Source of the DNA: Asterionella formosa
Taxonomy: Eukaryota
Direction: 5' to 3'
Assembly: GCA_002256025.1 (NCBI GenBank)
Contig: NKIB01012462.1
Location: forward strand, 1-64,000
Length of the DNA stretch: 64,000 nt
The position numbers and the translations under genes were made by a program. This document shows, one piece after another, positions 5,304 to 48,460 of this stretch; the first letter of the stretch is position 1, and the number at the start of each line of letters is the position of its first letter. The notes beneath the pieces are model-generated. The model did no database searches and was not told where the DNA came from. It was given only the letters and a program-made list of their open reading frames with translations.

Positions 5304-6222
5304 ATGGTGTCAGCAAGAGCAGCTGTGATTCTCGCGTTGGCGGTTCGCGGCTCTGTAAATTCGTTTTCCGTTTCGACCTGTGCTCGTGTGGGTGCTGGTA
5401 GAACAACAACGTCCAGGCTGAAATCAATCGAATCCGTCCTTGCTTCCAAACGCGACGATGGAGACGTTCCAGAATACTTACCAACCTCGTTTGGTATGGA
5501 TGCTGTTCCCGAGGGACAGCGTCCGGTGAATGAATTTACGGATTTGATGCGAGCGCCACTCTTTGGTTGGGCCTCGGAAGAAAGGGGAACAAATGGGTTG
5601 CTCTTTCGCCTCGTTGCAACATATGTCGTCACTTTCGCCGCCGTCTGCTACCCCATTTCTGGTGCCACGTTTACCCAAGAAGGATTCGAGTTGCAAAAGC
5701 TTGCGGCTAGTAACGTTGGGGCGCTGATGTTGATCATGTTGTTGTTGCTCCGTTTGTACTCTGGTTGGGGTTACGTTGGATCCAGATTGAATAGTAAGGT
5801 GGTTGAATACGAAGAGACTGGTTGGTACGATGGAGCTTCCGAAGAAAAGTCTGACATTGTCAGACAAAGAGATCAATTTCTTTATCAGAGCAGTGTCAAG
5901 CCCGTCATAGATAGACTGAAACTTGTCTCCCTCGTCACTAGTGGCCTCTTCGTCGCGGCATGCTTTGGGTTCAATGCGTCAATGAGCATTAGACCCATTT
6001 TCAACGAATACGATCCGAGAATTTTGGAGCGAGTCCGATACGATGGTACGTTTTGAGCTCCGATGTTGTTGCCTTGTGTATGAAATTTCTCAAAGCGCGA
6101 ACGACTGTCCCGCTGTAGACAAACTTTCAGATATTGCTGCCAAAGAAAGTAATGGACGACCAACGTATTGTGATTCCCGATATTATCGCGCTATTGCTGG
6201 GGGAGGACAAGGATGTGATTGA
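5304..6222 (+). CDS. CGLD27: CGLD27/Ycf36-like (DUF1230) plastid protein; exons 5304-6045 and 6119-6222
   Basis: VPEGQRPVNE, RLYSGWGYVGSRL, YEETGWYDG; the GT..AG intron 6046-6118 restores the C-terminus GRPTYCDSRYYRAIAGG. Confidence 0.9.
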
Positions 6223-10195: not shown

Positions 10196-11101
10196 GGATT
10201 TGAATCGATGATCAAAGGATTCCACAAGAGGAAGATTGCTTTTCTTAAATTTCTGTACAAAATTCTCCTTATTTCAGGTTGTATTAAAATGTCAAAATCG
10301 CCTCGAACATGACCGTGACCCCTTCAACAAGATGCCTCGTCGTCCTTGTCTGGCCTGAGGATTCAATGCATGCAACAAGAAGGAATAATATCATAACTTC
10401 TACCTGGTTGTGTTTGTTGTAAATTTTTTACTTTATTTCATGGTACATCTAGTTTCAAGATATCAACAGGTTCAAATGCTTTCCTTGTTATCACGATTCA
10501 GTCGGTCACTTCAAGATTCTGAGAAATAAGAAGGGGAGGTTCACTGTTCCCACACGCATCTCCTTCATCCTACATATGTATAGTTTTGTGTTTGTTTTCT
10601 TAGCAGCTGTGTGGGCGAACATCATTTGTTCCAGGGCCTACGTATATGTTGAGCCACGTCTGATCACACTTGCCTGCATGAATGTTACCTATACTCTGGA
10701 AGTACCAGTTTGGACTTTGGCGTGAAAGAACTCATTGCTACTAGTATAAGCAATCATACCCGGTTGACTACCGCATAGACGGCATTTTTGGTTTGGTAGC
10801 TCATCCCAAGTCTACATGTAACCAGACCATTACATTGCCTGCCTATTTATTAGTCTGAGCATCTATTGAGAAATGAGAAATAATAGTCTACGAAGAGCCT
10901 TACTCGCTAGGAGACTACCGGTACCTGGTACCGGTGGTATCATGATACATAGTATGATATGCCGGTCCCTACCGGGACTGGTACACAAGCCGCAATCATG
11001 AAATGAATCATCATGCCTCACAATGGTTGAGACTATGACTGTGCGGTGAATCTAATCTACTTGCATCATTGTTATTGAGTTGTGAAAAGCTCAATCTTGC
11101 G

Positions 11102-12580
11102 ATGACCCGGCAGAAACTGGAGGATACCGTCTGGGACGAGGCTCGACAAATGATCAATCTTGCCATCCCGACAGTGATTGTGCAACTTGGCGCCACCATC
11201 CCTCCTGCCTTGACCGCGTCGTACGTCGGCAGAAAGCTTGGTTCTGTTTATTTGGATGGTTTCACACTAGCAAATCTCACTGGAAATCTCTGCACTCTAT
11301 CACTGATATCAGGTCTTTATTCAGCATCGGATACACTCTCGCCACAAGCTTTTGGCGCCGGAAACTATAGCGAACTTGGCTTGCTGGCCATGCGAGGTTT
11401 TACAGGATCGATGCTCCTTGTAGTTCCCATCAATCTCGTCATGATACTATGCATGGATAGGATACTAGTGGCACTCGGTCAAGACTCAGAACCATCGCAA
11501 CTTGCCTGCAAATGGTACCAAATTTACGTCATTGCATTGCCGTTTTACGCACTTTACAACATCACTTGGAAATTCCTATCCGCACAGCAAATAATGGCTC
11601 CGCTTGTGGCCGTACTGATGCTGACGCTTGTAATGCTACCTACACTATTGGACACTCTCCTACCGGCGTTTGGATTTTTGGGGTCGGCCTACGCTATTTT
11701 GATTTACCAATTCAGTCAGGTGGCCTTGTTGCTGGGCGTTCTGTGGTGGCACAAACCTCATCATGACGGAACATGGCCTGGACTTGGAGCCTGGAGGGAA
11801 GCCTTGGAATGGGAGCCCTTCAAGGCATATTTATCGCTGGGGATGGGGGGTATTCTCTCAGCTAGTGAATGGATTTACTGGGAAGTCGTCGGGCTAATGA
11901 TAGGGACACTAGGACAAATTCCCCTTGCAGTTCACACTGTTCCAAACCAAGTGATTTCCGCTGCATTCATGATACCATTGGGTATTGGAATAGCTCTATC
12001 GATTAGGTTGGGACAAACGTTGCCTCAGAGTGTCACTCGAGCAAAGCGACTTGTCGTTTGGACCTTTGGCATTACGTTGTGTTTATCTTCGACTCTGTCA
12101 CTTTCTCTTTACGTGTATCGGTATCATATCTTTCGGCTGTTTACGACCGAAATCGATGTGCTCGATGGATGTGATCGGATTTGGTTGAAAGTGATGGTGT
12201 ACAATTGCACTCTCAGCATTTTCGCTGTCTGCGTTGGCGTCGCATCTGGTCTGGGTATGCAGTGGACTTTGGGAGCTGTTATTTTTGTTTGTCTTTGGGT
12301 TGTTGGGCTCCCTGGGTTATGGTACTTTGCAATTCACCGAAATGGTGGCATTGAAGTGGCATGGAACTGGATTTACCCGCAATACATGTTGATGAATGCT
12401 ATCCTACTGTACAAATTTTACGTCGCTGACTGGGATGCGATCAGCCATTCAATTCGATTACGTGAAGGACTAGAGTCAATTGTTTCAGTATGTGGCCAGC
12501 ACAAGTCGTATGGTGCGATGGTCGAAAGTTCTGTCAGCCTCATCGAGGTAAGCGATGAAAGTGGGAAAAATAAGCGCTGA
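11102..12580 (+). CDS. MATE-family efflux transporter
   Basis: About 12 hydrophobic segments; DTLSPQAFGAGN, SEWIYWE, SIRLGQ. First ATG is at 11102; the true start may lie upstream. Confidence 0.92.
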   Translation: MTRQKLEDTVWDEARQMINLAIPTVIVQLGATIPPALTASYVGRKLGSVYLDGFTLANLTGNLCTLSLISGLYSASDTLSPQAFGAGNYSELGLLAMRGFTGSMLLVVPINLVMILCMDRILVALGQDSEPSQLACKWYQIYVIALPFYALYNITWKFLSAQQIMAPLVAVLMLTLVMLPTLLDTLLPAFGFLGSAYAILIYQFSQVALLLGVLWWHKPHHDGTWPGLGAWREALEWEPFKAYLSLGMGGILSASEWIYWEVVGLMIGTLGQIPLAVHTVPNQVISAAFMIPLGIGIALSIRLGQTLPQSVTRAKRLVVWTFGITLCLSSTLSLSLYVYRYHIFRLFTTEIDVLDGCDRIWLKVMVYNCTLSIFAVCVGVASGLGMQWTLGAVIFVCLWVVGLPGLWYFAIHRNGGIEVAWNWIYPQYMLMNAILLYKFYVADWDAISHSIRLREGLESIVSVCGQHKSYGAMVESSVSLIEVSDESGKNKR

Positions 12581-23629: not shown

Positions 23630-25763
23630 GTTTTCTACTCCAGTACTGTCATGAACTGTTTGGTCTAAACAGTGTTCAACTGCATTGCCTTAGAATGGAG
23701 GTAGTTCAAATATCCTGTTTCCTTAAGTTAGCATGATGAGTTTTCATCCCAAAGATACAATATGTGTATCAACACAATGCTGTAAAGATCCCACTTTGTG
23801 CTAGAAAGTGACAGAATCATTCTGACTCTAATGATGGGAGCATGGCTCAACATGATGGCTAAATATGGTTTGTCATTTCGCTCCATGGATGACAAACATT
23901 TATGAATGATTATGTCACTGATGGTAGCTGTGACAATGGTCTCATCTCAGTTCCTATGTCTTTTTATCCCAGTGCTTCTCATATGCATTCTGTAATGAAG
24001 CGCATCTAAACAGGTTTTCTACTCACCCCAGAGAAGACCCCACACAGACAGCAGGACAATCTAATTCGATTTCAAGTCATTGTATCCAATACCCAAGGCA
24101 AAAAAAGCAACTGAGTCATCCTCCCAAAATGGAGGGCTTGTTACCAGAAAGGCATAGGAGAATATCTGAAGCTGCAACCCCTTAAACAACCTTACGGTTC
24201 ATCCTTCTTCCTAGTGATTCTGGGAAAGGGGGCAGGATTTTTCAATGAGAAAACCTTGCATCTGGACATAAATGTAGATGTGATTCTACCCAAGGTACGT
24301 CCTGCCTCCAATCAAAGTCACCAACGAAAAGAAGTAGAGGCAAGATCTATGGAAGCAAATTTTCAGCTTTAATATGCTAATTGCAAATACATCGACGTTG
24401 CCATGACAAAAGAATTTTTTTGACCTGATGAAGACTGGAACAGCAATAAAGTATGAGTGAGATACTTTGAAGAGGAATACAACTTTATGAAATATGACCT
24501 TTTGGGAATCCACAAAGGGAAGCTCGTAATGGTGACCTTGATCGGTGCTGGGACTGATGATTGCCGATTTGATCGCAAGGTGAGTAACATGTAGAATAGG
24601 CCAGGGGAGGAACCGCAGGAGAGAGTTATTTTAGGAGTACCGGGATTAGGAGCAAAAGTACATGTGAAGTGGGAATTCAAAAGGGAGAGATGATCCACTG
24701 ACAAGTAACTAGTACTATGGCTTGTTATCCCAAAGTTTGTTAGATGCAGCCAGGACTAGTATTGCCAATAGTAGGTCTAGTACAGCTACCATTCATTGTA
24801 GCCACATGGTCAAAACCAGGATTCAAAACCTACTAGCTTTTGAAGTGACTGAGGCAGTTGGGAAAAATGTCCACTGATGAATTGGAGTCAGGACAGGAAA
24901 TTCATGGTATATGGCCCTGATGCAAATGCTTATGGAATGGCCAACATGGCAGCATGCCAACCCAAGGGTAGTACTGGTAGAAGGTCAAGGTGATCAGCCA
25001 AAAGGGTGATGATCATTACTAGGGTACCTGGTACTTTCGTTCCCTGTTTACCAGTACCTATATGTCTTACTCTTCTAAAACAAGAATGAAAAGGAGTGAA
25101 CAGCTTTGTTTGCAACAGAATTATGTCACCACTCCAAGATGATCAATGTCCTTCTAAAAACGTGTGCGAATATAACTGTGTAAAAGCAAAAGATGACTCT
25201 CACAACATGGGAGAAAGAGGTACCAAGGTACCAGGTACCTTGTTAACAGGTACGGTACCAGGGTGCCCGGTACCTATTACCTGGAAAACAAATCTACTGA
25301 GGATGTCTCTTGGTAAAAATCTCGCATTAAAAGATGACTTATGTATATATACCGGTAATGCAAATGCATATAGGTGATGTGGCCTTTACATACAGTCGAT
25401 CAAGTCGATCTATGCTATCTATACCGGAATATATTAAGTTCACTTGTATGACATACTTTGAATGTATGTATGATATATTATTTTACCAAGAAAAAGTGAA
25501 AGCTGGCTTTGACATAATTCACCAGACATAATTGTTCTGGATAGAGACTTTTGCATGGTCACAGCCAACCCACAGGCCATGATGAAATGACCAAATGCAC
25601 ACCATTCCGCCCACCATCAACAACGCACACATTCGTCTAAATGTGTCATAAACTATATTATATTCATCTCCTCGCTCTCCACATCGGGAGAAGAATAACT
25701 AGAGCCGACAGTTAAAGAAAGACAACCAGAAGCAGAAAGAGATAGGAGGAAGGAGAAGGAAGT

Positions 25764-28700
25764 ATGAGCAGAGACGACGAACATGCTGATCAGAAGATCG
25801 GGATAAGTGTCGATCAATCGCTCGTGGATGTCGAGGTTCGACGAGTAACAGGATCTGAGACGTTAAATATTACCGACGCCAACCTTCCAGAATTTGAATA
25901 CAAGGGATGTCTCAATGAGTTAACGACGACTTATGAAGACAACCTTGGATCATTTGGCAATATGTTTGACATTCACACCTATGACGACATTCAACTCTAT
26001 GGTATTGACATCTACACTGACGTCGAAAAGTCTGTAGATTTTGAAATATACACAAAAGCCAATGCCTTTGCCGAAGATGGCGGTAATGTCAGTATCGACG
26101 CCTGGACACTGCTCATTAACGGAACAACAATTGGAAGAGGCCGATTAAATCCAACACCAATAAGAGGATTCAAAGTTGTCAACATTCCATCTCAAGTAAC
26201 CATGGGATTTTATGTGACGCTTACGACCCCTGATTTAAGGTATCGTGACATACGAGCGGAAATGATTAACAGTACTGTTGGGGTTGTGTACTCGAAAAAT
26301 GAAGACTTGGAGATTCGCGTGGGTGTTAGCGTAGGAGAATATCCGTTTTCGCCAACATTTTTTGAATCAAGAGCGTGGAGTGGGACTTTGCACTATGTGC
26401 CCAACACTGGGTGCCCGTCAGCAGCGCCGTCATCCCTCCCTGTACCGAGTGCGTCGCCTTCTGTATTGATAGAAACTGAGTTTCCTTCAGTTGCACCTTC
26501 CATTTTACTCACTGTTGAACCTACTCGAGCTCAAGCGGGATTAGGGAACTGCACTGACGAAGGGACTCTTGAGACAACTATGCAAGGAGGTACCGGTGCA
26601 TACGGTAGCATGTTTACCGTCAAATCAAAAAATGCAACTGTATCCATAACTTCGCTTTCATTTCATAGCGATTTCACAGAAGGATTACTCACTGCCCAAG
26701 TGTACACCAAAGCAGGCGATTTTATTGGCTATGAGAGTGCACCTGAGTCGTGGAAACAAATATCGGAATCAGTGTTGGTTGGGGAAGGTACTGGCTTGCG
26801 AACCAAGATCCCGACTGATGACTTCGAAGCCATCATAATGAGGCCACATGAGCTACGAGCGTTTTACATGACATTAACTACAGCTGACATTCGATACACT
26901 CGAACGAACAAGACGCTAGGCGAGCCTGTCGCTCAAAACAAGTTTATTTCTGTTAACGTAGGAGCAGGACTTGCAGATTTTCCCTTTGCTACTAAATTCT
27001 TTATCTATGAACCGCGAGAGTTTAATGGTGCAGTGCATTTTGAAACAACTGCCGAGTGCCTTCCATCTGGAGATGTCTTGTACGTTTACAACGTTCACCA
27101 TACCCCAGGCATGCGCGAGGTCGACGTGATTCGAATTATCACCAACAATGTACAAAGTACGATGGAAGGATTATTTAGGGACGATCCAGAAGTGATCAAA
27201 TACGCGACTAAAAGCAAGGTAAAATTGGTAAAGACAGCTTCGATCGTTCCCGACCAGACATGTCAGCCTATCAGTGCAAAATTCGAATGTACACGTGTTG
27301 AGGTTAGAGTCACTCTGAAACATGCCCCAGCCTTGCGGTGGGGCGACATTAAATACTTTTTTCTTCAATTCAACGAGGATGTGACCCTCAATATCAACTT
27401 GGAATTCCAAGCTCAATATGTCGGCGACCGTCCAGCTGAGCAGGGAACAAAGTTTACCCTGGGATCAGATTCCCCACTCCGAAAAATGACGCCTGCACAA
27501 TCTGCTGCTTTTGAAAACGCTATCTTTGATTTTCTAGTAGGGCCTTTAAAAGAGAAAGGAGTTGTTCCCCTTTCAGTGAAAGTCAATAGTCAAGTGATAC
27601 ATGGAAATGGTGATAAGCGTCGCCTCGGCACCCGTAGGCAGCAAAGTAGCGGTGGATCGATCGACATTTCGACTTCAATTACGGGAGAATATCGTCCTCC
27701 ACCTGAAGTCAACTACGACGGTGTCGTTAGCGATGCTTTGGATGCAAGCAACCCTGACCTTCAGCAACGCATTAATCGAGCAGACAAATATTTTGAAGTC
27801 ATCAATAGCGTAGAGGCGGTGTCAGATACTGGCCCTAGTGGTGGAACAAAAGCCACAATGGCGCAAACCTCAACCAACAGCATTCCTGTCGTCCCCGTTG
27901 TTGCTGGAATTGGAGGCTTTTTTGTTGTCGCCTTTCTATTTTGGTGCCTCAAAAGGTACAGGAAAAATCAGGAACTGAAGAAGTGGAACCAGCAGCTAAA
28001 TCTCGATTCTGATGTTTTGGACTCTAGATGGCGCAGGTTTGGTGGTTTGTTCGGCAAAAAGAAACCGAAAAACTTTATCAATGACTTCGCTGGGGATGCA
28101 GAAGTGTCCGGTTGGAATGAACTGTCGCATCAACATGCATCCTTTGATGATAATTACAACAGTACCCAAAAGAATATCTACGGCGACAACAACGATGATT
28201 ATTTGTCACAGCAGGGCAAGAACAATCACAGTGACTGGCTTGATGCTAGTGTAAAGCAACAAACGGAAACTCTGCTTTACGCCCAGTCCCGCGAGGATAC
28301 CTTTGAAGATGAAAATGATGACAACTACCCCAGCAAACGGAGTCAGTCGTCTATGCTTACCCTAGATGAGTACACGAATGAAGACTATCTCACGAAGCCA
28401 CAAGTTGAAGCGCAAAATCAATGGCGACCTCAAATGAACCCTCGAGGACAAAGCCACATGAATTTAACTAAAAGCCAGCGGAGTATTCGGTCAGGAATTG
28501 CACCAACTTCATCTTCTGGCGACGCTGGAAACCAAGGGCGACCTCAGATGGATCCTCAAGGACATCACCAAATGAATCCATCAAGAAGCCAGCGGAGTAT
28601 TCGGTCAGAAATTGAACCAACTTCATCTTCTGGCGACATTGGAAATCAAGGGCGACCTCAGATGGATCCTCGAGGACATGGCCAAATGAATCCATCAAGA

Positions 28701-28919
28701 AGCCAGCGGAGTATTCGGTCAAAAATTGTATCAATTTCGTCGTCTGATGATGTTGGAAGTGGTGCACATAGTGTATCTACGTGGCATCAAGAGCAACGTG
28801 AACATATGCATACCAGCTTCAATGATAGCTATAGAAAGGTTGGGGACAGCTATTCAGTCGACCAGCAATCCATTTCTATGTCAGAAAAAGGGCAAGGTGC
28901 TGGATGGGCTGAGGGATAA
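25764..28919 (+). CDS. Large single-pass membrane protein: two repeated ~150-aa beta-rich domains, RRL motif, TM helix, repetitive tail
   Basis: 1051-aa ORF; duplicated GxMF...FYxTLTTxDxRY...G..(E/D)(Y/F)PF; TM VVPVVAGIGGFFVVAFLFWCL followed by KRYRK. Confidence 0.85.
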   Translation: MSRDDEHADQKIGISVDQSLVDVEVRRVTGSETLNITDANLPEFEYKGCLNELTTTYEDNLGSFGNMFDIHTYDDIQLYGIDIYTDVEKSVDFEIYTKANAFAEDGGNVSIDAWTLLINGTTIGRGRLNPTPIRGFKVVNIPSQVTMGFYVTLTTPDLRYRDIRAEMINSTVGVVYSKNEDLEIRVGVSVGEYPFSPTFFESRAWSGTLHYVPNTGCPSAAPSSLPVPSASPSVLIETEFPSVAPSILLTVEPTRAQAGLGNCTDEGTLETTMQGGTGAYGSMFTVKSKNATVSITSLSFHSDFTEGLLTAQVYTKAGDFIGYESAPESWKQISESVLVGEGTGLRTKIPTDDFEAIIMRPHELRAFYMTLTTADIRYTRTNKTLGEPVAQNKFISVNVGAGLADFPFATKFFIYEPREFNGAVHFETTAECLPSGDVLYVYNVHHTPGMREVDVIRIITNNVQSTMEGLFRDDPEVIKYATKSKVKLVKTASIVPDQTCQPISAKFECTRVEVRVTLKHAPALRWGDIKYFFLQFNEDVTLNINLEFQAQYVGDRPAEQGTKFTLGSDSPLRKMTPAQSAAFENAIFDFLVGPLKEKGVVPLSVKVNSQVIHGNGDKRRLGTRRQQSSGGSIDISTSITGEYRPPPEVNYDGVVSDALDASNPDLQQRINRADKYFEVINSVEAVSDTGPSGGTKATMAQTSTNSIPVVPVVAGIGGFFVVAFLFWCLKRYRKNQELKKWNQQLNLDSDVLDSRWRRFGGLFGKKKPKNFINDFAGDAEVSGWNELSHQHASFDDNYNSTQKNIYGDNNDDYLSQQGKNNHSDWLDASVKQQTETLLYAQSREDTFEDENDDNYPSKRSQSSMLTLDEYTNEDYLTKPQVEAQNQWRPQMNPRGQSHMNLTKSQRSIRSGIAPTSSSGDAGNQGRPQMDPQGHHQMNPSRSQRSIRSEIEPTSSSGDIGNQGRPQMDPRGHGQMNPSRSQRSIRSKIVSISSSDDVGSGAHSVSTWHQEQREHMHTSFNDSYRKVGDSYSVDQQSISMSEKGQGAGWAEG
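28416..28757 (+). repeat. In-frame 114-bp (38-aa) repeat x3 in the predicted cytoplasmic tail
   Basis: NQGRPQMDP..HxMNPSRSQRSIRS..PTSSSGD units at 28416, 28530 and 28644. Confidence 0.92.
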
Positions 28920-33838: not shown

Positions 33839-34084
33839 GTCAGCACATCCTCCATTGTCAGCAAGCGTGCTGCATCCGGCTCCGCTCCTACTGGAAAGTT
33901 CTCTGACTTTGACGTCAAGGTGTGGACTTCAGATGCTGGTGCCTACCCTGTCATGTTCGTTCTTGCATTTGCCTGTGCTTTCTGCGGATGGTACGGCTCA
34001 CGCAATTTATTGACACATCCTGACATTCGCATTTCTCCTAGCAAGAGAGTGAGCGTAGTTCGTACTTGGGGAAAGACGGAATAA
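33839..34084 (+). CDS. NDUFA4/B12D-family small mitochondrial protein; 5' end lost in the gap
   Basis: Open frame VSTSSIVSKRAASGSAPTGKFSDFDVKVWTSDAGAYPVMFVLAFACAFCGWYGSRNLLTHPDIRISPSKRVSVVRTWGKTE*. Confidence 0.85.
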   Translation, partial: VSTSSIVSKRAASGSAPTGKFSDFDVKVWTSDAGAYPVMFVLAFACAFCGWYGSRNLLTHPDIRISPSKRVSVVRTWGKTE

Positions 34085-34293: not shown

Positions 34294-35784
34294 TTAGAGG
34301 GTTTCTACTTCTTCCTCATGCTCATTCTCCTCCAACTTTGCAGGAAAACCGTCGTCGATCAATTGTTTTCCGGTTGTTCTGTCCACTCGAGGCCACCACA
34401 GTGGCATGTAAGGCAGATATCGAAATTCTTTTCCGCCGACCTTGATTTTATTCGTTCGCGACCACTTTTCACCTTCTACCAATCCTGTTTTGTCCAATCT
34501 CAGTTGTGCCAAGACACAAAACGTCCCCGCAGCCGGCGTACTTACAACTTGCCCAATGGTGTTGCCCCCAGCATCCACCATCTTTTCTCCTGGCTTTACA
34601 TGCTCTTCCATGGCCCGCATGTGCAACTCTGCATGTTCTTGCAACTTCTTCATGTCGCCAGAATCTTCGTCCTTAACTGCTCCCTCTGGCACCTGACCTG
34701 TGAGAACACTCATTAATCCACCAACCGAAGGCATACTCAAGGCTGGGAGGGGAGATCCATTGGTAAGTCCTGCCAGAATGCCATCTCGTTCCTCTTGCAT
34801 TTGACTTGCCGAAATCCACGGCCTTGGAAGTTGAGTTGTCGTGTCCAACAGCAAAACTGGTAGTATTCGTTTTCGTATCGTTCCGGTATGCATCGTTCGG
34901 GCCGTCAATTCTTGTCCCAGATAGCATCCCTTATGAAATGATACGGCCTGCAACCATTCTTGATTGGCCTCTAGAGCTGTTTTGCCGAGCAGTTCGTTGC
35001 CTTCCGCAACTCCCCCCAACTTTCTCAGGACCTCGTACGTGCCCGGGCAAGGCGGAAATACGCTTGACAGCATATTCTTAACCACTTCCGGCCCATGCTC
35101 CATAGATACGACTCGCATGCCGAGAGATGGATGTCGTGGGTCCATGCCCACATTAAAACCTGGTGGAGCGTTCTGCGAGTTGTATGTGCCGTAAACTACG
35201 TGCGACGATATCTCTCCAGTGAGATCCGAAAGCTGCACTTTGGATCGTCGTAGTTGATAGTGCTGCAAATGCTGCATTAATTGGTCTGCTGAATTTCTGG
35301 GAACATCAATCAGATATTGGTTGCCCTCGTCCAATTTCCAAAGCAAGGCGTCTGTGAGAATCCTTCCCTTGTGGTCCAAGAAGCAAGTGGCTCGGAGGTT
35401 CGTGTTGAATTGAATGGGTAGCTCGTCATTAACCACAGGTGGTTCTGGTGCATGTATTGGTTCTGCTGTTTCAATCTGGTCTAGTCCCTTGTGCCACAGT
35501 TGGATGTAGTCATTGGGCGGTTCAGGGGGCTTGAGAAGATCCGACGTGACGAGCCCCTGCAAGTAGGTCGTGGCCCCAGATCCTTGGACGGACAGGATTC
35601 GTCGCAAACCATTTCCCAAGTTCTCGTGGCCTTTGCCCCACAGCATGCCCCACTGTCGGGCCAGTGTACTGGAGGATTGATTCAATTGAGACGCCATTCG
35701 TATCTGGGGGGTAGCTCGGGTGAAGAATGGAAGGTCAGAGTCACTAATGCTTGGAGCATCGTGCGACAAACTATCGGTATTCAT
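34294..35784 (-). CDS. IBA57: IBA57/CAF17/YgfZ Fe-S assembly factor
   Basis: YLQGLVTSD, FLDHKGRIL, DPRHPSLGMR and the signature KGCYLGQELTAR. Confidence 0.95.
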   Translation of the reverse strand: MNTDSLSHDAPSISDSDLPFFTRATPQIRMASQLNQSSSTLARQWGMLWGKGHENLGNGLRRILSVQGSGATTYLQGLVTSDLLKPPEPPNDYIQLWHKGLDQIETAEPIHAPEPPVVNDELPIQFNTNLRATCFLDHKGRILTDALLWKLDEGNQYLIDVPRNSADQLMQHLQHYQLRRSKVQLSDLTGEISSHVVYGTYNSQNAPPGFNVGMDPRHPSLGMRVVSMEHGPEVVKNMLSSVFPPCPGTYEVLRKLGGVAEGNELLGKTALEANQEWLQAVSFHKGCYLGQELTARTMHTGTIRKRILPVLLLDTTTQLPRPWISASQMQEERDGILAGLTNGSPLPALSMPSVGGLMSVLTGQVPEGAVKDEDSGDMKKLQEHAELHMRAMEEHVKPGEKMVDAGGNTIGQVVSTPAAGTFCVLAQLRLDKTGLVEGEKWSRTNKIKVGGKEFRYLPYMPLWWPRVDRTTGKQLIDDGFPAKLEENEHEEEVETL

Positions 35785-36839
35785 TGTGAGTACATACCGG
35801 TAGCTAAGTTAATACTTACATACATATATACCGGTATGTATATGGTAGAAGGACCTGCAGGCTGGAGTACCACCCTGTACGTATGATACGGTAACTGGTA
35901 CCTGGTAGTCGTTGTACATGGTGCCATGATCACCAGGTTCAAAGCATTATTGGACTGATTGGACTCATATTCGAGTCCACAGTCCTCATGACTCGTGACA
36001 TCCATGATCATGATTGATGCTACGTATGACTGACTGGTTAGGAAATACCAGTATCCAATCTTGAGCGATGCTTCGTATGCCAGGTAACCATTGAGACTCA
36101 ACATACATACTGTAGCCACTAAGATATCCAAATAGACCTTGAAGCGACCACGTACGTGATGTGTATGACACGTAATTTACTTATCTTTTAGCTTGTGTGA
36201 TGACGTCGACTCAAGGTAAATGACGTCATTCGATATCACACGACACTGGATCGTATGTACCGGTACATACCGGTAGGAGTATTGCTTTGTATTGGCATCG
36301 TGCTGTACCTTGATTTATACCTAGGTACGGTGTACCTGCGTACCTGCACATTCAAACTGGTACATAGAGTTTCCTTCTAATTATGTTGCTAGGCAATAAT
36401 ATATTACCATGAGATGTGAGTTGAATGGATGATGTACGCATACCGGTACATAAAAGACGGTACCTGGTACATTGGACCAGGTACCGTACTAGTATACAGT
36501 GGATTAGTACCGGTATGATAGTAGTCAACATGTTGTCTTTCTCGTCAGTTCACAAGTAAAAGCATCAATCCTCAATTGTACAGCCATCTGGAGAAAATAA
36601 TACCCGGTAGAATATATATCCTGCATTTCCGAGTACCGGTATACCAGTATATATTTTTTTCTGCACACATTCCATCATTTCCGATTCTTCGTTCATTTCT
36701 TCATTTGGCATTTTTGCTTAACCGTCCATTCCGCCGTCGAATACAGCATACGCCGATTCTCGATTGATTAACGACAGAAGTAACAGCGAAAGAGAGGTAA
36801 TAGTAGAACTTTCAAACAAGCCCACCAAACCCGAACAAA

Positions 36840-39653
36840 ATGAAACATGCGTTCATACTAATAAATGCATTCGCCCTGATGTTGCCCTCCACTGGCGCCT
36901 TTTCAACTCGACATATTACCAATGCAGCCGGACACCCACGAATACGATCCCTCCAGCAGACTGCTCAAGACGAAGACAGCATCGCCCGCCGCTCATTTCT
37001 GGCGGGACTGGCACTCCTGACGATTACCCCGGCAGTCGCCGCTGAGTTGCCCTGGGAACAATCACCAGTCAACAAACGCAGTGGTGTCACCGTCTTTGAT
37101 GCCGAGCGAGATGGGTACACTGTACGATTTGTCACATATTTGTCACGATTTTTACTTAATTTTGATGACGATTGTCAGAGGTGGTGGTATAGTCGAGCGG
37201 CTGACCTTCCGCGACGAGGGACAGCGGCGGAAATCGACGCCATGCGACTGATGCAATTTGGTGCCTTTAGTGCCAGTGTCGAAGTGGGATTGCAAGAGTA
37301 TCGAGGTCCTGATGGACCGCGAAGACTCATGGCGAGTTTGCTACGGAGGTATGGTCCTGATCCAGATAAATTGGTGGAGGAACGTGAGGCGAGGGGACTG
37401 GAACCGTGGACGGAGTCTACTTTGGCGAGGGAGGGGAGAGAGATTAAAGAAGCTAGACGACAAATCGCCTTGTTGATGGGTTTGATAGAGCAGAGGCAGC
37501 CAGTGGAAGAAATTACAAAGCTGCTGGCGGCGATTGACAATGGGGCAATTGATAAGGTGGAGATTGTCGATCCAGGATCTGGATATGCGCCAGGGTATGG
37601 GAGTCCACTTGTGGTGTTTCCGCCACCTGAAGCTGGAGATAATTATCAGCGAGCGGCAGGTAGAGCAGTGCTAAAACCCAATGGAAAGATTTTGAGAATA
37701 GATCTCGTTAACCGAGGCTTTGGCTACGCCAAAACTCCAATTGTTACCATTTCGCCTCCCGCAGCTTTGATGAAGGAACAAGGGAGCAAGACGACCGCAA
37801 ATTCTACCATGTGCACTGCAACTGCCACAGCCTTGCTTTTTCGTACAGGGGTCAATAAGGGAAGAATTGAGCGCATTCAACTGACAGACCCTGGTGCTGG
37901 TTATACCAAGGACGAAACAATTCGCATCAAATTTACATCTCCAGAAATGGCACCTGCTGACGGTGGCACGATAGCAACAGCTATCGCTGTCTTGGAATAT
38001 GAAGTGGGGGCCATTGAAATGACGAATGGGGGATCTGGATATGCGGTGGAGAAACCTATCAATGTCTATGTAGAGCCTCCTCCTCTCACGGCTCGTGTCA
38101 ACATGAATGACCCAATGATGGCACGGATCTTTGCACCCAACGAACCTCTTCCCGCATCAACTGTCCCCACAAAGGAAATGCGTAAAAAAATGCCTAAAGA
38201 CAACGACCCAACATCCCTGGCGGCACGAGCAGAAAGAGATGCCATAAATGATGGTAATGGTGGAGGTGGTGGTTGTATTGGGAGAGCCTGTTATGATCGG
38301 GCTGTACAAGCCGTGGCATATCCAAGAGCCGAGATGTATTCTTACACAACCTTTCAGAATCCAGAAGATACCATGAAGGTGCAAAAGGTGGAAGCTGCGA
38401 TTCGAACACGATCATCGGCTAGTGTACCAACCTGGACGGACACTTCCTATAATCCCAAACAGCCGAAGAAGGTTGTCAGCGCCACAACAAGTGGTCCTGA
38501 AAGTTCTCTACCTTCTCTCCCTTCTTGGGGTGGAGGATCATCCTCCTCCGCACAGCTACTATCCCTGCTGCCTTCTGGGATCGGTCTTGAGTATGATAGG
38601 GTTTTGAAACGATATCGACTGGGATCAGGTGATGGCATGCCAGACTGGACACAAGCACCTTCATCCACCAAACCGTTGGATCCAGAGTTTGGTCCTCGGG
38701 GTAGGTCGCCTATCGAACGTGACATGAAGTTGGGATTCGACACATATCTTCGCTTTTGTGCCTCCGGAGCCATTTGTTGTTCAGCTGTACACTTGGCGCT
38801 TACACCAATTGATGTCGTCAAGACCAAAGTGCAGACAAATCCGATCAAATATCCCGGAGTTATTTCTTCATTCCAGAAGGTTTTGAAGGAAGAGGGGCCT
38901 GGAACATTTTTCACTGGTTGGGCTCCCACTTTTACTGGTTTCTTTCTCTGGGGCGGATTCTCCTATACTACAACTGAATTAATTCGACGATATTTGATCG
39001 AAGCTGCAGGAACGGATGCTTCGGCTCTAGAGGTTCCTATTATCCTGGTAGCTTCCAGCGTTGGAGCCTTTTTTGGATCCTTCCTTATTTGTCCATTTGA
39101 AGCAGTTCGCATCAGAACAGTTTCCCAGCCAGGTTTTGCACCAAATTTTGTGGGTGTATTGAAGAGAATTATTAGGGATGAAGGACTCCTGTCACTGTTT
39201 ACTGCTGTTCCAGTCTTCATGGTAAAGGAAATTCCCTTTGCCATGGCAAAATTTACTGTCTTTGATTTAAGCACAGAGTGGATGTACGAGACGTTTCCAG
39301 CAGCTCGTGAAGATCTCCAACTCTCCTTGTTAGTGAGCTTAATCGGAGGTACTTTGGGTGGAATCACAGCAGCGTTTGTGTCCAACCCTGCAGATGCAAC
39401 AATTTCTGAAATGAAAAAGGCTGCCACAAAGGTGGGTCCTGTCACTTTTGCCAGAATCATTTGGAAGAGGGGTGGACCATCAGCATTTTTCAAGGGGTTG
39501 CAGCTCCGGATGTTTTTCTATTCATTGCTTGTTAGTCTTCAGTTTTTGGTCTATGACTCAGTTCGATTTGCCTTGGGCATTGGATCCGATGACTTGAAAT
39601 TGTACTTAGATGTCCTGGGTGGGGCCTTGAGTGAGAATGGAGGATCTGTTTAG
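36840..39653 (+). CDS. Predicted plastid-targeted fusion: long N-terminal domain with 4 GSGY repeats plus a mitochondrial-carrier (phosphate carrier-like) domain
   Basis: 937-aa ORF; TGA-FST cleavage motif; RRSFL..AVAA; carrier motifs PIDVVKTK, CPFEAVRIR, NPADATIS, KEIPFAMAKF. Confidence 0.9.
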   Translation: MKHAFILINAFALMLPSTGAFSTRHITNAAGHPRIRSLQQTAQDEDSIARRSFLAGLALLTITPAVAAELPWEQSPVNKRSGVTVFDAERDGYTVRFVTYLSRFLLNFDDDCQRWWYSRAADLPRRGTAAEIDAMRLMQFGAFSASVEVGLQEYRGPDGPRRLMASLLRRYGPDPDKLVEEREARGLEPWTESTLAREGREIKEARRQIALLMGLIEQRQPVEEITKLLAAIDNGAIDKVEIVDPGSGYAPGYGSPLVVFPPPEAGDNYQRAAGRAVLKPNGKILRIDLVNRGFGYAKTPIVTISPPAALMKEQGSKTTANSTMCTATATALLFRTGVNKGRIERIQLTDPGAGYTKDETIRIKFTSPEMAPADGGTIATAIAVLEYEVGAIEMTNGGSGYAVEKPINVYVEPPPLTARVNMNDPMMARIFAPNEPLPASTVPTKEMRKKMPKDNDPTSLAARAERDAINDGNGGGGGCIGRACYDRAVQAVAYPRAEMYSYTTFQNPEDTMKVQKVEAAIRTRSSASVPTWTDTSYNPKQPKKVVSATTSGPESSLPSLPSWGGGSSSSAQLLSLLPSGIGLEYDRVLKRYRLGSGDGMPDWTQAPSSTKPLDPEFGPRGRSPIERDMKLGFDTYLRFCASGAICCSAVHLALTPIDVVKTKVQTNPIKYPGVISSFQKVLKEEGPGTFFTGWAPTFTGFFLWGGFSYTTTELIRRYLIEAAGTDASALEVPIILVASSVGAFFGSFLICPFEAVRIRTVSQPGFAPNFVGVLKRIIRDEGLLSLFTAVPVFMVKEIPFAMAKFTVFDLSTEWMYETFPAAREDLQLSLLVSLIGGTLGGITAAFVSNPADATISEMKKAATKVGPVTFARIIWKRGGPSAFFKGLQLRMFFYSLLVSLQFLVYDSVRFALGIGSDDLKLYLDVLGGALSENGGSV

Positions 39654-39984
39654 AAGTGCATTATTGCCTAAACCAAAAAGGGTAGTTTTGGTTTGAATTG
39701 AGCTTGGGAAATTGTGAATTATTTGAAATCCAGAGTGAATGTCCAGCAGGGCCATGATATCCTTGATAGAAAATTGTCTACCATAGAGTGTAACGACATC
39801 CCTTGTTTTGACCTCATGTTGGGAGGTGCTATGATTTATTGAGACACCTCCTCATTCATAGACTACATACTGAAATACTTTGTAAGACATAGTCATTCTA
39901 GAGCTACTGCTTGCCTAAATTTGTATGTAAAAAATTAAAATTGAACTACGGATTTACACATGGAATTTTTATAGCATGGCTTGC

Positions 39985-42694: not shown

Positions 42695-43040
42695 TACGAT
42701 AGTTCGTATCCAACATGCAAACTATATAGAATAGGTTAGAACCACGACACATTCAACATTCACAAGGTCCGTGCGAGACATACAGAATATGACTACCCCC
42801 ATCAATCATATACCAGTATTCACATAATATTAATATATACCGGTACCAGGTACCAGGTACCAGAACAAACTACCGGTTCAAGATGGTGTCATCAGTCATC
42901 ATGTGTAGAACGCCGGCCCATTTATTCCCTCCTCCTTTTCTGCATGTAATAAGCCACCACCAGCCCCTCACCTACACATGCACGATAATCAATAGCAAGT
43001 GTTGTAATTGTATGATCATTTTTATTCATCACAAGCCGAA

Positions 43041-44720
43041 ATGCCCATCCTCAACTTTCTGAACCATGAGTTTGCCTCAGTAACTTCGCATTTCGCTCAT
43101 CGGGATGCAACAAGATCTTTATCTAAGAATGATGCAACTATTAATGAAACAGACTGCTCCCGAATATATCCTCTGGAAACCACCTTTGTTTCAGAAACCA
43201 AGGGCTTTGGTTCAATGTTCAACGTACGATCCAAAGAGGCACCTTTGAAGATACTGACGCTGGCGTTTTCAGCTCTTGAGCTAACGGGTGTTCCAGTCGA
43301 TGTGATGGTTTACACCAGATTGGGTGGGTACATAGGGCACGAGGACGCACCATGGGCATGGACATTGATTAGTGAAGCCACGCTCATGACAGCTCCAATA
43401 GGACAAGGAACTCTGATACCCCAAGCGAGTTTCAAATCAGTGGAAATGAATTCCAATGAGACTCGAGCCTTCTATATTACCCTGAAAACCAGGGATTTAA
43501 GGTACTCTATAGCCAAAGGAACAGTTGGCCAAGTGGCGGTTCAGGATGATCATTTACAAATTCACATCGGTTCGGCTATGTTGGAATATCCATTTTCAAG
43601 ATATCTTTTTGAGCCACGAGTCTTCAACGGAATTTTTTACTATGAAGCTCAATTAAATTGCCAAGACTTGCTTCTCACTGCTGAAGTTCCTCTACCGTTT
43701 GTCATTCAGATAGATGATTCATTCATTGAAGCTGTGCTCATCTCCCAAATCAATAATATCCTGAAGGCCTCAGTCATTTCCATCATGAAGACCGACCCAA
43801 AACTCCGACAGCTCCAGAAGTCTTTCGCTCTTTCACTAGTTGATGTCAATACTTCCATTCCGAAATCGTTGCATGTGGCAGCTGTCAGCAGCTGCGAAAA
43901 TAGCTCGAAGAATGGGTGCATTGTTGTTATGACTTCTATTCGCTTTCGACATTTCGATACAATTCAACCAGGGCAAGTTACATACCAGCTGCTCAATCAT
44001 CGCCAGAAATTTATCAACGATCTCAATTTGGGAAACGTTAGAGCCACTTATGTGGGCGCTCTGCCGATGGAGAGCCGTACAGTTTTGACACTGGAAGGTG
44101 TACCGGAGGGAAAACACATGAACCAAAACCAAGTAGCATATTTCGAAGAAGTCACAAGCGCTTTCTTGGCGAAAAGATTGTCGAACACACCGAGTGCCAA
44201 TATTTTGAGTGTTCAAGTAACACATCAAAAGGTCGTCTCTTCAGGAAGGAGACGCTTACGAAGCAGCTCCTCGTTACAAATTTCAACTACTGTAACGGGA
44301 GAGTACCGGCCACCACCATTTGTAGCCCTCGATGGTGTTGTGAGTGATAGTATTGACGGAGGCAGTTCATTGGCAGATGACTTAAAATCGAAGCGAGAAG
44401 TTCCAGGGTTTCTTAAGCCAGGCAATTCTGAATTTTTCGCAAATGTTGATGCTGTTCATACTACACCCCCGTCAATTGTCGCCAAACAAGCTCAGTTGGC
44501 AACGACGAGTCAAGACAAACCAACATTCTATCCTTATTTTAGTTTACCCTTCGCATTCTTGGGCTTGCTTGTAAGTGGTTACATTTTATACAAGAAAAGG
44601 TCCAAGAGAAAGCAATTGCTGGACAAGCAAATGAAAGCGTTGGATGACTTTGGGGGCTGGAACGATCATAATGTGTTGACTGCTGAAGTCACGCCACTTC
44701 ACATTGCAAGAAGGGACTAG
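43041..44720 (+). CDS. Single-pass membrane protein, paralog of 25764-28919 with one beta-rich domain
   Basis: GSMFNVRSK, RAFYITLKTRDLRY, FEPRVFNG, GRRRL, TGEYRPPP; TM FSLPFAFLGLLVSGYILY followed by KKRSKR. First ATG used; the 5' end is uncertain. Confidence 0.85.
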   Translation: MPILNFLNHEFASVTSHFAHRDATRSLSKNDATINETDCSRIYPLETTFVSETKGFGSMFNVRSKEAPLKILTLAFSALELTGVPVDVMVYTRLGGYIGHEDAPWAWTLISEATLMTAPIGQGTLIPQASFKSVEMNSNETRAFYITLKTRDLRYSIAKGTVGQVAVQDDHLQIHIGSAMLEYPFSRYLFEPRVFNGIFYYEAQLNCQDLLLTAEVPLPFVIQIDDSFIEAVLISQINNILKASVISIMKTDPKLRQLQKSFALSLVDVNTSIPKSLHVAAVSSCENSSKNGCIVVMTSIRFRHFDTIQPGQVTYQLLNHRQKFINDLNLGNVRATYVGALPMESRTVLTLEGVPEGKHMNQNQVAYFEEVTSAFLAKRLSNTPSANILSVQVTHQKVVSSGRRRLRSSSSLQISTTVTGEYRPPPFVALDGVVSDSIDGGSSLADDLKSKREVPGFLKPGNSEFFANVDAVHTTPPSIVAKQAQLATTSQDKPTFYPYFSLPFAFLGLLVSGYILYKKRSKRKQLLDKQMKALDDFGGWNDHNVLTAEVTPLHIARRD

Positions 44721-46249: not shown

Positions 46250-48460
46250 GGCCGAGCTCTGATAATATAAAAAAAAATTATTATATGTTGCGTGTATTAT
46301 AACAAAAATTATTCTGGTGATCTGCTACATACTATCGTCCTTGCGCTCTGATAATAGAGATATTTTAGATTACTTCTCTGACATTATATATATTTTTAAC
46401 TTTAATTTTCAACAGTTAAATTTTCATATCGATGCATCTTCTTGTATGCTATGCCACCTCTTGTTCATTATATGCATGAGTTCTATATATTCATCATTGT
46501 CGGTCACTGACCATGTCGACTTTCATCTCATCTCATCTCCTGATGATGATGATGATGATGACATTATGATCACATTGCTACTGTTAGCAATGTGCTATCC
46601 ACCAGTAAATAGGACACCATCGTTCAGGGAAAGTTTGACTGTTGATGAGGTCAGAAGAAGAAGTGGCAAAATCCGTCGCCACGCACTACAGCATCCATTA
46701 TCGAGTCCATTCTGGACTTTGCTTGTTCAACAGCAAGCATGATGATGCACTGATTGCCTTGTGTGGGTTTGACCATGCTTCTTTCGAGCTCCTACACCAG
46801 CTGTTCAAACCTTGTTTTTATTCCTTCACTCCCTGTAGGAAAAATACGGATTTCATTGTTAGAAATTCAACAACAAAGAAAGGTCGGCAAAGATACCTCT
46901 GTTCCATCAGTTGTCTAGCGCTTGGGTTAGCATGGACCAGGACTCGTGGTTCCTATATGATTCTTCAGATTATTTTCGGATTAACTCATGGTTCTTTGAG
47001 TGTTTGGTTGAGGTTTTCAAGGCGAATGATTGTAAAAGTACTGCTGACACATGAAGATGCCGTTGTGAGACTGCCTACTTCTGCAGACGAAGCCACCTTG
47101 TTTGCAACCATGATGATCAATCAGAAATACCCACTTATAACGAATTGTTGGGGAGCAATGGATGGTCTGAAACTGACCCTGCAACGGGCTGGAAATGAAA
47201 CACAGCAGAACAACTTCTACAATGGATGGACCCATGAACACTATGTGACAAACTTGTTTCTTTTTCCGCCTGATGGAAAAATTCGCTGCTCATATTTCAA
47301 TGCACCTGGTGTTTTACATGACTCCACCATGGCAATTTGGTCATCGAGTTTACAGGGATACAGGCAAAAAAGTAGTTGTGGATTCAGCATTTGCATCTAA
47401 AAAATCAAATGCAATGTTGAAATCACATCAAAACAATGTTGATGCAAATGGTAATCCTCGACAAAGATTTGGTATGAATCGCCAAGCCACCTCCATCCGA
47501 CAGCTGTCGGAATGGGGAATGCGATGCCTTCAGGGATCATTTCCGAGAATCAAAGACAAATTTCGTTATGAAGAAAAAGGTGAGAGAAAATTAATTCTCC
47601 AAATGATTGTATTGCTCTTTAACTTTCGTGCTAGCAAAGTTGGTCAGAACCAAATTGCTTCAGTGTATATGCCCTATTTGCATAGGAATGCAAATAGATA
47701 TGCCATGTAATTCAAAAAAATTATTCCTTCATGATTATCTAGCACCACTTCTTTCACATTATATTAGAATGAATTAATTTAAGGTTATTCATCATCACTA
47801 CTACTGCTACCAGCCACTGTTGTTTTTTGGTGTTTGACATTGAGTTGAGGCAGACAAAGTTTTTTGTGCATTGGCACCTGCTGTCGAGTTTAGATTTTGG
47901 CTTTGCATTGTTTGCTGCATTGAAATCATGTTTGGAGCAATAATTGAATTCATAATTGCCTGAGTGGGATTGGCACTGTCAGTTGAGGTGGTTGTTTGAG
48001 ATACCCCATGCTGATTCAACAATGATGCCATGATTGACATCATCATCATGTTCATCATGTTCTGTTGCTGCAGTTGTTGCTGCTGTTGTTGTTGCTTCTG
48101 CAGGTTATCAGTATCAGTTCGAGTAGTCTTGTGAAGCAACTGTGCCGAAAGAAGAGAAAGCACTTTTTCAACAGGCCCAGTATTGTTTGACACTGCCTTT
48201 TCTCTAAATCGAGGGGACACCATAGATCAAGGAAATCTTGAACCAGAAAAATTAACATAAGCGGCAGATGTTGCTCCACCATTGTCTTCACTCTCCCCAG
48301 AAATCGCTATAAAATCATCATCAACATTTGGCTCATCAATATTGAGCTCATTGGGCTCTCTATTTTTGGTCAACACAAACACAAATTTTGGGGTTATGGG
48401 TACAACGATTTGTGTTATAATACACATGATATAATAATTTTTTATTATCAGAGCGCGCCC
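46250..48460 (+). mobile_element. PIF/Harbinger-superfamily element with ~55-bp TIRs, AAT target duplication and a frameshifted transposase (~46456-47710)
   Basis: Left AAT|GGCCGAGCTCTGATAAT...; right ...ATTATCAGAGCGCGCCC|AAT; GAMDGLKL, FYNGWTHEHY, APGVLHDS, VVVDSAF, RQLSEWGMR; convergent Q-rich ORF at 47807-48223. Confidence 0.9.

What the first reader, a model, noticed from the sequence alone, without database searches (positions are those of the whole stretch)
37545..38090. Four phage-structural-protein-like GSGY beta repeats in the carrier's N-terminal domain
Seen: VEIVDPGSGY..PLVVFPPP, IDLVNRGFGYAKTPIVTISPP, IQLTDPGAGY..IKFTSP and IEMTNGGSGY..VYVEPP, interleaved with Ala-rich strands (AAGRAVL, ATATALL, ATAIAVL). 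From memory this resembles the I(T/V)xxGGSGYTxxPTVT repeats of T4-like/cyanophage tail and baseplate proteins and some bacterial surface proteins. Inference: a horizontally acquired module fused to a eukaryotic carrier.
Basis: partly seen in the sequence, partly recalled or inferred. Interest (0 to 1): 0.7.

Follow-up and report, generated by a model that had tools for sequence, protein, structure and literature searches.

The report
Algal thylakoid carrier with phage-like domain
A diatom gene encodes a mitochondrial-type transporter that seems to have been re-addressed to the photosynthetic membrane and carries a large extra domain built partly from a module common in phage tails and bacterial surface proteins, which could explain a known high-light defect.

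Summary
The four GxGY repeats are real and lie in one transcribed 937-aa diatom ORF (36840-39653). They match phage virion families (PHROG E 2e-13), 107 mostly cyanophage records and the inserted D3* domain of tailspike Dpo31. They match T4 sheath domain I only weakly. Bacterial and archaeal proteins score nearly as high, and the tree cannot name a donor, so "phage-derived" is unproven. The acquisition is ancient: diatoms, other ochrophytes, haptophytes and a chlorarachniophyte share the fusion.

A twin-arginine thylakoid-transfer peptide follows the plastid presequence (172 of 175 relatives; shuffles at most 9). The same genome has a repeat-less paralog, so the module is an insert. The carrier belongs to the phosphate-carrier clade and keeps its gates, but has lost the phosphate-contact Lys, Gln and Met in all 98 family rows.

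The Phaeodactylum ortholog J11866 is annotated as a phosphate carrier. A high-light CRISPR screen lists it as a malate-shuttle candidate. Best reading: a thylakoid, proton-coupled carrier of changed specificity, with a lumenal domain whose barrels act as a docking arm. Location and substrate are predicted, not shown.

The parts
36840..39653 (+). Single-exon ORF, 937 aa (P0001); ortholog of Phaeodactylum Phatr3_J11866
   Evidence: RNA contig 36677-39748; 62% identity over 866 aligned residues to P0043, whose N-terminal ~100 residues I compared by eye with the J11866 sequence in the supplement; both are 1057 aa
36840..36902 (+). ER signal peptide ending in A|F (diatom plastid presequence, part 1)
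   Evidence: hydrophobic peak at residues 4-22; motif rule recalled; ortholog predicted chloroplast by HECTAR, 'Other' by ASAFind
36903..36983 (+). Putative stromal transit peptide
   Evidence: position between signal peptide and RR motif; low-confidence, unstructured in the model; inferred
36984..37043 (+). Twin-arginine (Tat) thylakoid-transfer peptide: RRSFL, hydrophobic stretch, AxA
   Evidence: 172 of 175 family proteins with enough N-terminus carry it; shuffled mean 3.9, maximum 9; RR columns at least 90% conserved in the 150-row alignment
37047..37535 (+). Family-specific helical domain (residues 70-232), no known family; present in all three paralogs of this genome
   Evidence: no usable Atlas hit; no prokaryotic relative found
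37536..38087 (+). Four GxGY beta repeats (residues 233-416), read as two nested beta barrels
   Evidence: nesting inferred from secondary structure
37692..37997 (+). Inner barrel (repeats 2-3), weakly like T4 gp18 domain I
   Evidence: VIA Z 4.0-4.1, rmsd 3.3, 73-74 aligned; PF22639 E 0.088, below cut-off; shuffle test
38088..38330 (+). Helical insert with a CxGRxC cysteine pair, then the strand (489-495) that likely closes the outer barrel
   Evidence: C479 and C484 invariant in 43 diatom-clade rows; strand in both models
38331..38540 (+). Variable, disordered linker
   Evidence: pLDDT under 50 for residues 502-575; poorly conserved
38541..38732 (+). Conserved pre-carrier segment; follows the helical domain directly in the repeat-less paralog
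38733..39575 (+). SLC25 carrier domain of the phosphate-carrier clade, gates kept, phosphate contacts replaced
   Evidence: PF00153 E 7e-38, 3 stretches; VIA Z 24.5 to UCP1; tree; residue tallies
39576..39632 (+). Conserved C-terminal helix, on the same membrane side as the N-terminal domain
   Evidence: sidedness from general SLC25 topology (recalled)

Best explanation
The protein is a nucleus-encoded SLC25 carrier of the thylakoid membrane in algae with complex plastids.
(1) Shown in sequence: a signal peptide, a transit peptide and a Tat peptide in a row. Inferred: about 560 folded residues are exported into the thylakoid lumen, and the six carrier helices sit in the thylakoid membrane. The face that looks to the intermembrane space in mitochondria would then look to the acidic lumen.
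(2) Shown: the carrier descends from the mitochondrial phosphate-carrier clade and keeps both salt-bridge gates, but the phosphate contacts are replaced (Gln86->Trp, Lys90->Ser, Gln176->Glu, Met275->Phe, Asp124->Ser in Pic2 numbering). Lys796, Arg890, His651 and the new Glu797 line the cavity. Inferred: it still transports, most likely a small anion other than, or besides, phosphate, coupled to a proton through Glu797, and so helps set lumen pH or solute balance in strong light.
(3) Shown: the four repeats are a prokaryote/virus module inserted once, long ago, between the helical domain and the pre-carrier segment. Inferred: as in T4 gp18 domain I and Dpo31 D3*, the barrels are a non-catalytic protruding arm that docks a partner protein and positions or regulates the carrier.
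Rough odds: module homologous to the phage/prokaryote repeat 0.93; thylakoid with lumenal N-domain 0.75; active transporter not mainly of phosphate 0.6; barrels as protein-docking arm 0.55; donor specifically a phage 0.35.
For: Tat motif 172 of 175 vs shuffles at most 9, consensus [STND]-R-R-x-F-[FLM]. No hydrophobic 19-residue window above 1.09 between residues 70 and 630, so nothing flips the topology. Gates in 98 family rows: D658 96, K661 96, E754 98, R757 98, E713 93, R716 97, D906 91, R909 92. Phosphate contacts: Q at 704 0, K at 708 0, M at 893 0, D at 747 0, Q at 797 7, against K in 4 of 4 PiC-type paralogs of this genome. Family plus PiCs form a clade, 100/99. Repeat-bearing rows form one side of a branch, 94/88, with the repeat-less group outside; algal repeats are one group against prokaryote/virus repeats, 100/98. 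In print: J11866 is co-expressed with photosynthesis and Calvin-cycle genes, and is named among transporter hits in the high-light discussion of a genome-wide CRISPR screen. gp18 domain I is an inserted, protruding domain that binds tail fibres and baseplate. D3* is an inserted, protruding domain that folds alone.
Against: No localisation, transport assay or partner exists for any member in what I could read. ASAFind calls the Phaeodactylum ortholog 'Other'. MCFc (J46742) has a similar RR motif, yet was read as envelope-associated, and its first 87 residues gave a 'stromal' GFP signal; an RR motif therefore need not mean thylakoid. I found no paper on Tat-dependent polytopic carriers in diatoms. 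His651 is kept in only 77 of 98 rows, and the subfamilies differ at the cavity, so one substrate may not fit all. The gp18 match is weak (Z about 4; Pfam 13.2 bits vs cut-off 27; hhalign probability 8%). Carrier monophyly of repeat-bearing plus repeat-less members is not recovered, only not rejected (p-AU 0.454). Pic2 numbers were mapped through this genome's own canonical carriers by motif spacing; Pic2 itself was not aligned.
Confidence: 0.45

Rival explanations
1. It is a plastid-envelope metabolite carrier of the chloroplast-to-mitochondrion shuttle (malate or similar), as suggested for J11866, with the N-terminal domain in the stroma or between the envelope membranes.
For: The CRISPR preprint lists J11866 as a malate-shuttle candidate. 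MCFc, also RR-bearing, is published as envelope-associated. Loss of phosphate contacts fits a new substrate.
Against: The suggestion rests on annotation only. A Tat motif with h-region and AxA kept in 172 of 175 proteins from distant lineages has no clear use at the envelope. The carrier groups with phosphate carriers.
Confidence: 0.15
2. It is a thylakoid carrier that still moves phosphate, doing the job that PHT4-type transporters do in green-algal thylakoids, by way of a rebuilt binding site.
For: PiC clade; automatic annotations as SLC25A3; His651, Lys796 and Arg890 kept; a thylakoid phosphate transporter is reported in Chlamydomonas (PMC12056506, search listing only).
Against: Lys90 and Met275 are reported as important for phosphate transport in Pic2 and are absent in 98 of 98 rows (4 gaps at the Met column); Gln176 is Glu in 82 of 98.
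Confidence: 0.15
3. It is a thylakoid metal carrier (copper or another divalent ion). It kept the Cys/His site of Pic2 and dropped the phosphate site, and the lumenal domain hands the metal to a client.
[quoted passage not shown]
Against: The paralogous subfamily has Arg in place of His (16 of 98 rows). The residue matching Cys29 is variable. Basic Lys796 and Arg890 remain.
Confidence: 0.12
4. The carrier no longer transports and only anchors a lumenal strut: the nested barrels set lumen width or tether membranes, or bind a glycan as speculated for Dpo31 D3*.
For: The module is a structural appendage in virions and occurs as long tandem arrays in bacterial proteins. D3* is distantly like sugar-binding Ig folds. 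The substrate site has diverged.
Against: Both gates are conserved in more than 90% of rows, as expected of a working carrier. The repeat-less paralog shows the carrier unit exists without the arm.
Confidence: 0.09
5. The likeness to phage proteins is convergent, from Gly/Pro/Ala-rich beta repeats, and the module arose within algae.
For: Identities are only about 28-32%. No solved-structure match reaches significance by Foldseek.
Against: An algae-only profile scores 78 bits over positions 2-168 of a cyanophage protein and at least 30 bits in 87 of 112 prokaryote and 84 of 120 viral loci, against a maximum of 9.6 bits after shuffling. Foldseek E reaches 8e-9 on viral models.
Confidence: 0.04

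Closest known systems
Phatr3_J11866 of Phaeodactylum tricornutum (ortholog)
   Same: Same architecture; 62% identity via P0043. Listed as a plastid mitochondrial-carrier protein (PMC9546453 supplement), called a phosphate transporter (bioRxiv 2024.12.16.628690), CRISPR hit (bioRxiv 2025.09.15.676419).
   Different: In the passages and sections I read, none of these papers mentions the Tat peptide, the N-terminal domains, the repeat module or the lost phosphate contacts; no localisation was tested.
Mitochondrial phosphate/copper carriers (SLC25A3, Mir1, Pic2)
   Same: Clade, His in helix 1, both gate networks, helix-5 motif lacking its basic residue.
   Different: Phosphate contacts replaced; about 630 extra N-terminal residues; plastid and Tat signals.
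Repeat module of T4-like cyanophage virion proteins (protein downstream of gp6, gp14 neck insert, baseplate wedge) and of bacterial FG-GAP and multicopper-oxidase proteins
   Same: Same strand-GxGY-PxVxI-AxAxA unit; profile and fold matches.
   Different: Here a fixed set of four units inside a eukaryotic membrane transporter, instead of variable tandem arrays on virions or long bacterial proteins.
Dpo31 domain D3* (phage Carin-1) and T4 gp18 domain I (PF22639)
   Same: Two-repeat inserted, protruding beta domains; profile hit E 3e-4 to Dpo31 residues 444-505, inside D3* 434-536; Z about 4 to gp18 residues 101-185.
   Different: Single domains there, two nested here; the gp18 match is below every threshold.
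MCFc (Phatr3_J46742) and Arabidopsis TAAC
   Same: SLC25 carriers placed in plastids; MCFc has a similar spread over complex algae.
   Different: MCFc is a 40 kDa carrier of another subfamily with no large N-domain; TAAC is a nucleotide carrier reported as restricted to green plants (title).

Membership tests
SLC25 mitochondrial carrier family | Three Mito_carr repeats above the Pfam cut-off | tested here: met
   128.7 bits vs 22.3, 3 stretches
SLC25 mitochondrial carrier family | Six-helix carrier fold | tested here: met
   Z 24.5, rmsd 3.7, 275 aligned to UCP1
SLC25 mitochondrial carrier family | Matrix and cytoplasmic salt-bridge gates | tested here: met
   91-98 of 98 rows at eight gate positions
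Phosphate carrier (SLC25A3/Mir1/Pic2) | Descent from the PiC clade | tested here: met
   100/99 against four other carriers of this genome; long outgroup branches, small outgroup
Phosphate carrier (SLC25A3/Mir1/Pic2) | Phosphate contacts Gln86, Lys90, Gln176, Met275 | tested here: not met
   0, 0, 7 and 0 of 98 rows; residues from PMC7924939; mapped through own-genome PiCs
Phosphate carrier (SLC25A3/Mir1/Pic2) | Phosphate transport activity | not testable with these tools
   needs an assay
Thylakoid Tat substrate | RRxF motif, hydrophobic stretch and AxA after a plastid presequence | tested here: met
   RR plus hydrophobic stretch in 172 of 175 vs at most 9 shuffled; AxA read in P0001 and by eye, not counted; motif definition recalled
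Thylakoid Tat substrate | Lumenal location of the passenger | not testable with these tools
   needs fractionation or tagging
GxGY repeat module of phage virion and prokaryote proteins (no Pfam family of its own found) | Profile similarity over several units | tested here: met
   PHROG E 2.4e-13; 78 bits vs 9.6 shuffled
Gp18 domain I (PF22639) | Score above the curated cut-off | tested here: not met
   13.2 bits vs 27
Gp18 domain I (PF22639) | Same six-stranded barrel | tested here: inconclusive
   top three rows of 48,161 chains but Z only 3.3-4.1; 0-4 of 500 shuffles reach the real score for 6 of 7 profiles, 69 of 500 for the seventh
Phage-to-alga horizontal transfer | Algal module nested in, or sister to, a phage clade | tested here: inconclusive
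   algal rows form one group (100/98); the 16 non-algal rows are unresolved
MCFc subfamily | About 40 kDa carrier of the J46742 group | tested here: not met
   ortholog is J11866, 1057 aa, a separate table entry

The most novel reading that the evidence does not exclude
Algae with complex plastids share an undescribed class of thylakoid transporter. It is a mitochondrial phosphate carrier re-routed by Tat, stripped of its phosphate site and fitted with a lumenal arm taken from a cyanophage virion protein, and it acts as a regulated proton/anion valve needed in high light. It then spread between red- and green-plastid lineages.
Probability: 0.2. Interest if true: 0.85.

Novelty: new variant of a known kind. 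Interest (0 to 1): 0.62.

Why it matters
Which transporters tune the diatom thylakoid, and which carry the chloroplast-mitochondrion shuttle, are open questions. J11866 is already a screen hit but is filed as a phosphate or malate carrier. The Tat peptide and the rebuilt cavity give a different, directly testable placement in a model species with CRISPR tools. The protein would also be an unusual SLC25 architecture (a Tat-exported 560-residue domain) and a case of a virion/prokaryote surface module kept over deep time inside a eukaryotic organelle protein.

Tried and rejected
Sequence search of the PDB with the repeats alone gave only a kinase at E 0.065 or worse, rejected. Foldseek on the PDB gave 0 matches at E 0.001; a second look at its top 989 chains gave Z at most 2.5. 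Peptide-pattern scans with the single repeat region found no relative in genome or viral contigs; they need near-exact 8-mers, so this is no evidence of absence. The mixed repeat alignment had no stretch conserved enough to scan with. No plasmid match. No NCBIfam family for 4 of 4 proteins.

The helical domain had no usable Atlas hit, no prokaryotic relative (two patterns only) and only generic helical matches with Z under 6; it was not folded alone. A complex prediction of the helical domain with the carrier half gave no answer (score 0.01) and is not used.

Recent HGT was rejected (GC3 and taxonomic spread). An assembly chimera or missed intron was rejected (RNA contig; conservation). Identity with MCFc was rejected. 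Earlier findings of this scan: none returned.

Literature searches that found no description of the N-terminal domain or its repeats. The library lacks most subscription papers.
Full report
The observation. The finding lies in one open frame, 36840-39653 (+), of 937 residues. Every motif quoted is there. Family profiles of the four units match each other with hhalign probabilities of 96-98% in 6 of 6 pairs. A model of residues 228-500 is confident and mostly beta (pLDDT 87.8). RNA contigs from 4 of 4 runs laid cover the gene, and one polyA contig runs from 36677 to 39748 with no joint, starting and ending just outside the ORF. Contigs cannot show level or strand.

The host and the family. The best named relatives are diatoms, so the host is read as a diatom; the runs are from fresh water. 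With residues 70-520, 304 of 7999 scored candidates pass E 0.001. The deep search returned 612 representatives, 150 listed. Of the 148 new ones, all but five carry other family segments beside the repeats; four are short repeat-only pieces and one (P0175) is a 3120-residue array protein. Red algae, green algae, cryptophytes and dinoflagellates were not tested. The own genome holds three members: this one, a second with repeats on contig C12208, and a third on C12614 with the presequence, helical domain, pre-carrier segment and carrier but no repeats. Four more repeat-less proteins were found in 568 candidates.

What the repeats are. Pfam has no significant family for them. PHROGs gives 16 families at E 0.015 or better, 14 of them annotated as virion, baseplate, neck or tail-fibre proteins and 2 as unknown, best 2.4e-13. 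tblastn finds 107 of 50,697 phage records, 104 named Synechococcus, Cyanophage or Prochlorococcus, at about 30% identity. Foldseek finds 31 viral models at E 0.001, with low TM-scores of 0.2-0.34. The module is not confined to phages. An algae-only profile scores 78 and 69 bits on two cyanophage proteins, 72 on the best viral contig and 70 on the best bacterium; shuffles reach 9.6. The cyanophage rows were picked by likeness to the query, so their lead is biased. A tree of 17 algal rows and the 16 of 235 non-algal stretches that cover most of the profile separates the algae cleanly (100/98) but names no sister.

Solved relatives. A mixed algal-cyanophage profile hits tailspike Dpo31 at residues 444-505 (E 3e-4, the only row at E 10). 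The paper (PMC13317679, sections 3.1 and 4 read) describes residues 434-536 as D3*, an inserted, protruding Ig-like domain that is soluble alone and only distantly like sugar-binding domains. The wide fold search ranks T4-type sheath protein residues 101-185 first, against model residues equal to 287-384, but at Z 3.3-4.1. Pfam's Gp18_dom_I shows at E 0.088, and T4 domain I beats nearly all shuffles for six of seven profiles. These are weak signals that agree. Domain I is an inserted six-stranded barrel that binds fibres and baseplate (PMC3004832, passages). I infer that repeats 2-3 form an inner barrel, and that repeats 1 and 4 with strand 489-495 form an outer one; I did not see coordinates.

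Targeting. After a signal peptide ending A|F comes a twin-arginine motif, a hydrophobic stretch and AxA. Among 212 proteins with the family anchor, 175 had at least 95 residues upstream; 172 of these have RR plus a hydrophobic stretch, against a mean of 3.9 and a maximum of 9 in 200 shuffles. Of the three misses, one has RK and one has RR with a weaker hydrophobic stretch. No membrane-spanning stretch lies between this signal and carrier helix 1. That such motifs direct folded proteins to the lumen, and that both SLC25 termini lie on one side, is recalled knowledge. Against it, MCFc has a like motif and was read as envelope or stroma, although its GFP signal co-localised with chlorophyll and PsbA.

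The carrier. It is a full SLC25 domain. The best matches in the own genome are phosphate-carrier types, and family plus PiCs group at 100/99 (34 of 62 rows used). Repeat-bearing rows form one side of a branch (94/88). The repeat-less group falls weakly with the PiCs (85/65), and a single family clade is not rejected (p 0.454). One gain of the repeats is the simplest reading, but loss in the repeat-less line is not excluded. In 98 family rows (129 carriers, less 8 own-genome carriers and 23 near-duplicates or fragments) the gates are kept in 91-98, while the phosphate contacts named for Pic2 (PMC7924939, passages) are gone: Gln86 0, Lys90 0, Met275 0, Asp124 0, Gln176 7. That paper reports Lys90 and Met275 as needed for phosphate but not copper. 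PMC7611774 (passages) ties proton symport to acidic residues in the predicted site (the passage is cut there), which fits Glu797.

What is in print. The ortholog J11866 appears in a supplement as an untested plastid carrier (PMC9546453, passages and supplement rows). It is called a phosphate transporter co-expressed with photosynthesis genes (bioRxiv 2024.12.16.628690, passages and section 9; its proteomics line prints the id as J11886). It is also offered as a malate-shuttle candidate among hits of a high-light CRISPR screen (bioRxiv 2025.09.15.676419, passages and sections 6 and 12); that it is in the high-light-depleted set is my reading of the text, and the table was not seen. PMC12645085 (first part, passages, section 3.1) concerns MCFc. 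The pyrenoid preprint 10.1101/2023.10.26.564148 (passages) has no occurrence of 'carrier'. Searches found no account of the N-terminal domain.

Verdict. The larger result is the whole protein: a probable Tat-targeted thylakoid carrier with a rebuilt cavity and a lumenal arm, whose ortholog already has a light-stress phenotype. It is a new variant of a known kind. Location is likely, while substrate and the role of the arm remain inferred.

Noticed in passing
G000:C12614, locus L006 457-2427 (+): Third paralog with plastid and Tat signals, helical domain and carrier but no repeats; four more such proteins. A natural control for what the barrels add.
   Followed up: partly
G000:C12208, locus L003 1972-5076 (+): Second paralog with repeats; Arg replaces the helix-1 His, so its substrate may differ.
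   Followed up: partly
PMC9546453 supplement, row J46742: MCFc itself has an RRFF motif, a hydrophobic stretch and AxA, although published as envelope-associated; it may be a thylakoid protein, or such motifs may serve another route.
   Followed up: no
window 38274-38291 (+): CxGRxC cysteine pair invariant in 43 diatom-clade rows but not seen in the distant subfamilies; a possible lumenal disulfide.
   Followed up: no
loci L005 and L009 (own genome): Two more PiC-type carriers that keep the Lys90 equivalent but have Glu for Gln86 and His for Met275.
   Followed up: no
window 3004-4143 (+): One frame holds EF-hand and Tic20-like domains.
   Followed up: no
window 25746-28919 (+) and 43008-44720 (+): Open frames of 1057 and 570 residues with no Pfam match.
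   Followed up: no
window 34294-35808 (-) and 33845-34081 (+): Ordinary neighbours: a CAF17/IBA57-like gene and a B12D/MLRQ-type small gene; also CGLD27 at 5232-6056, MatE at 11039-12580 and a DDE transposase piece at 46639-47400.
   Followed up: no
window 24067-24456 (-): Weak second carrier-like match with three stops inside; an intron-split gene, a relic or noise.
   Followed up: no
loci L020-L132 and L133-L252: The GxGY repeat is abundant in phages, bacteria and archaea, yet Pfam gave no significant family for the 13 repeat stretches scanned; it merits its own family model.
   Followed up: partly
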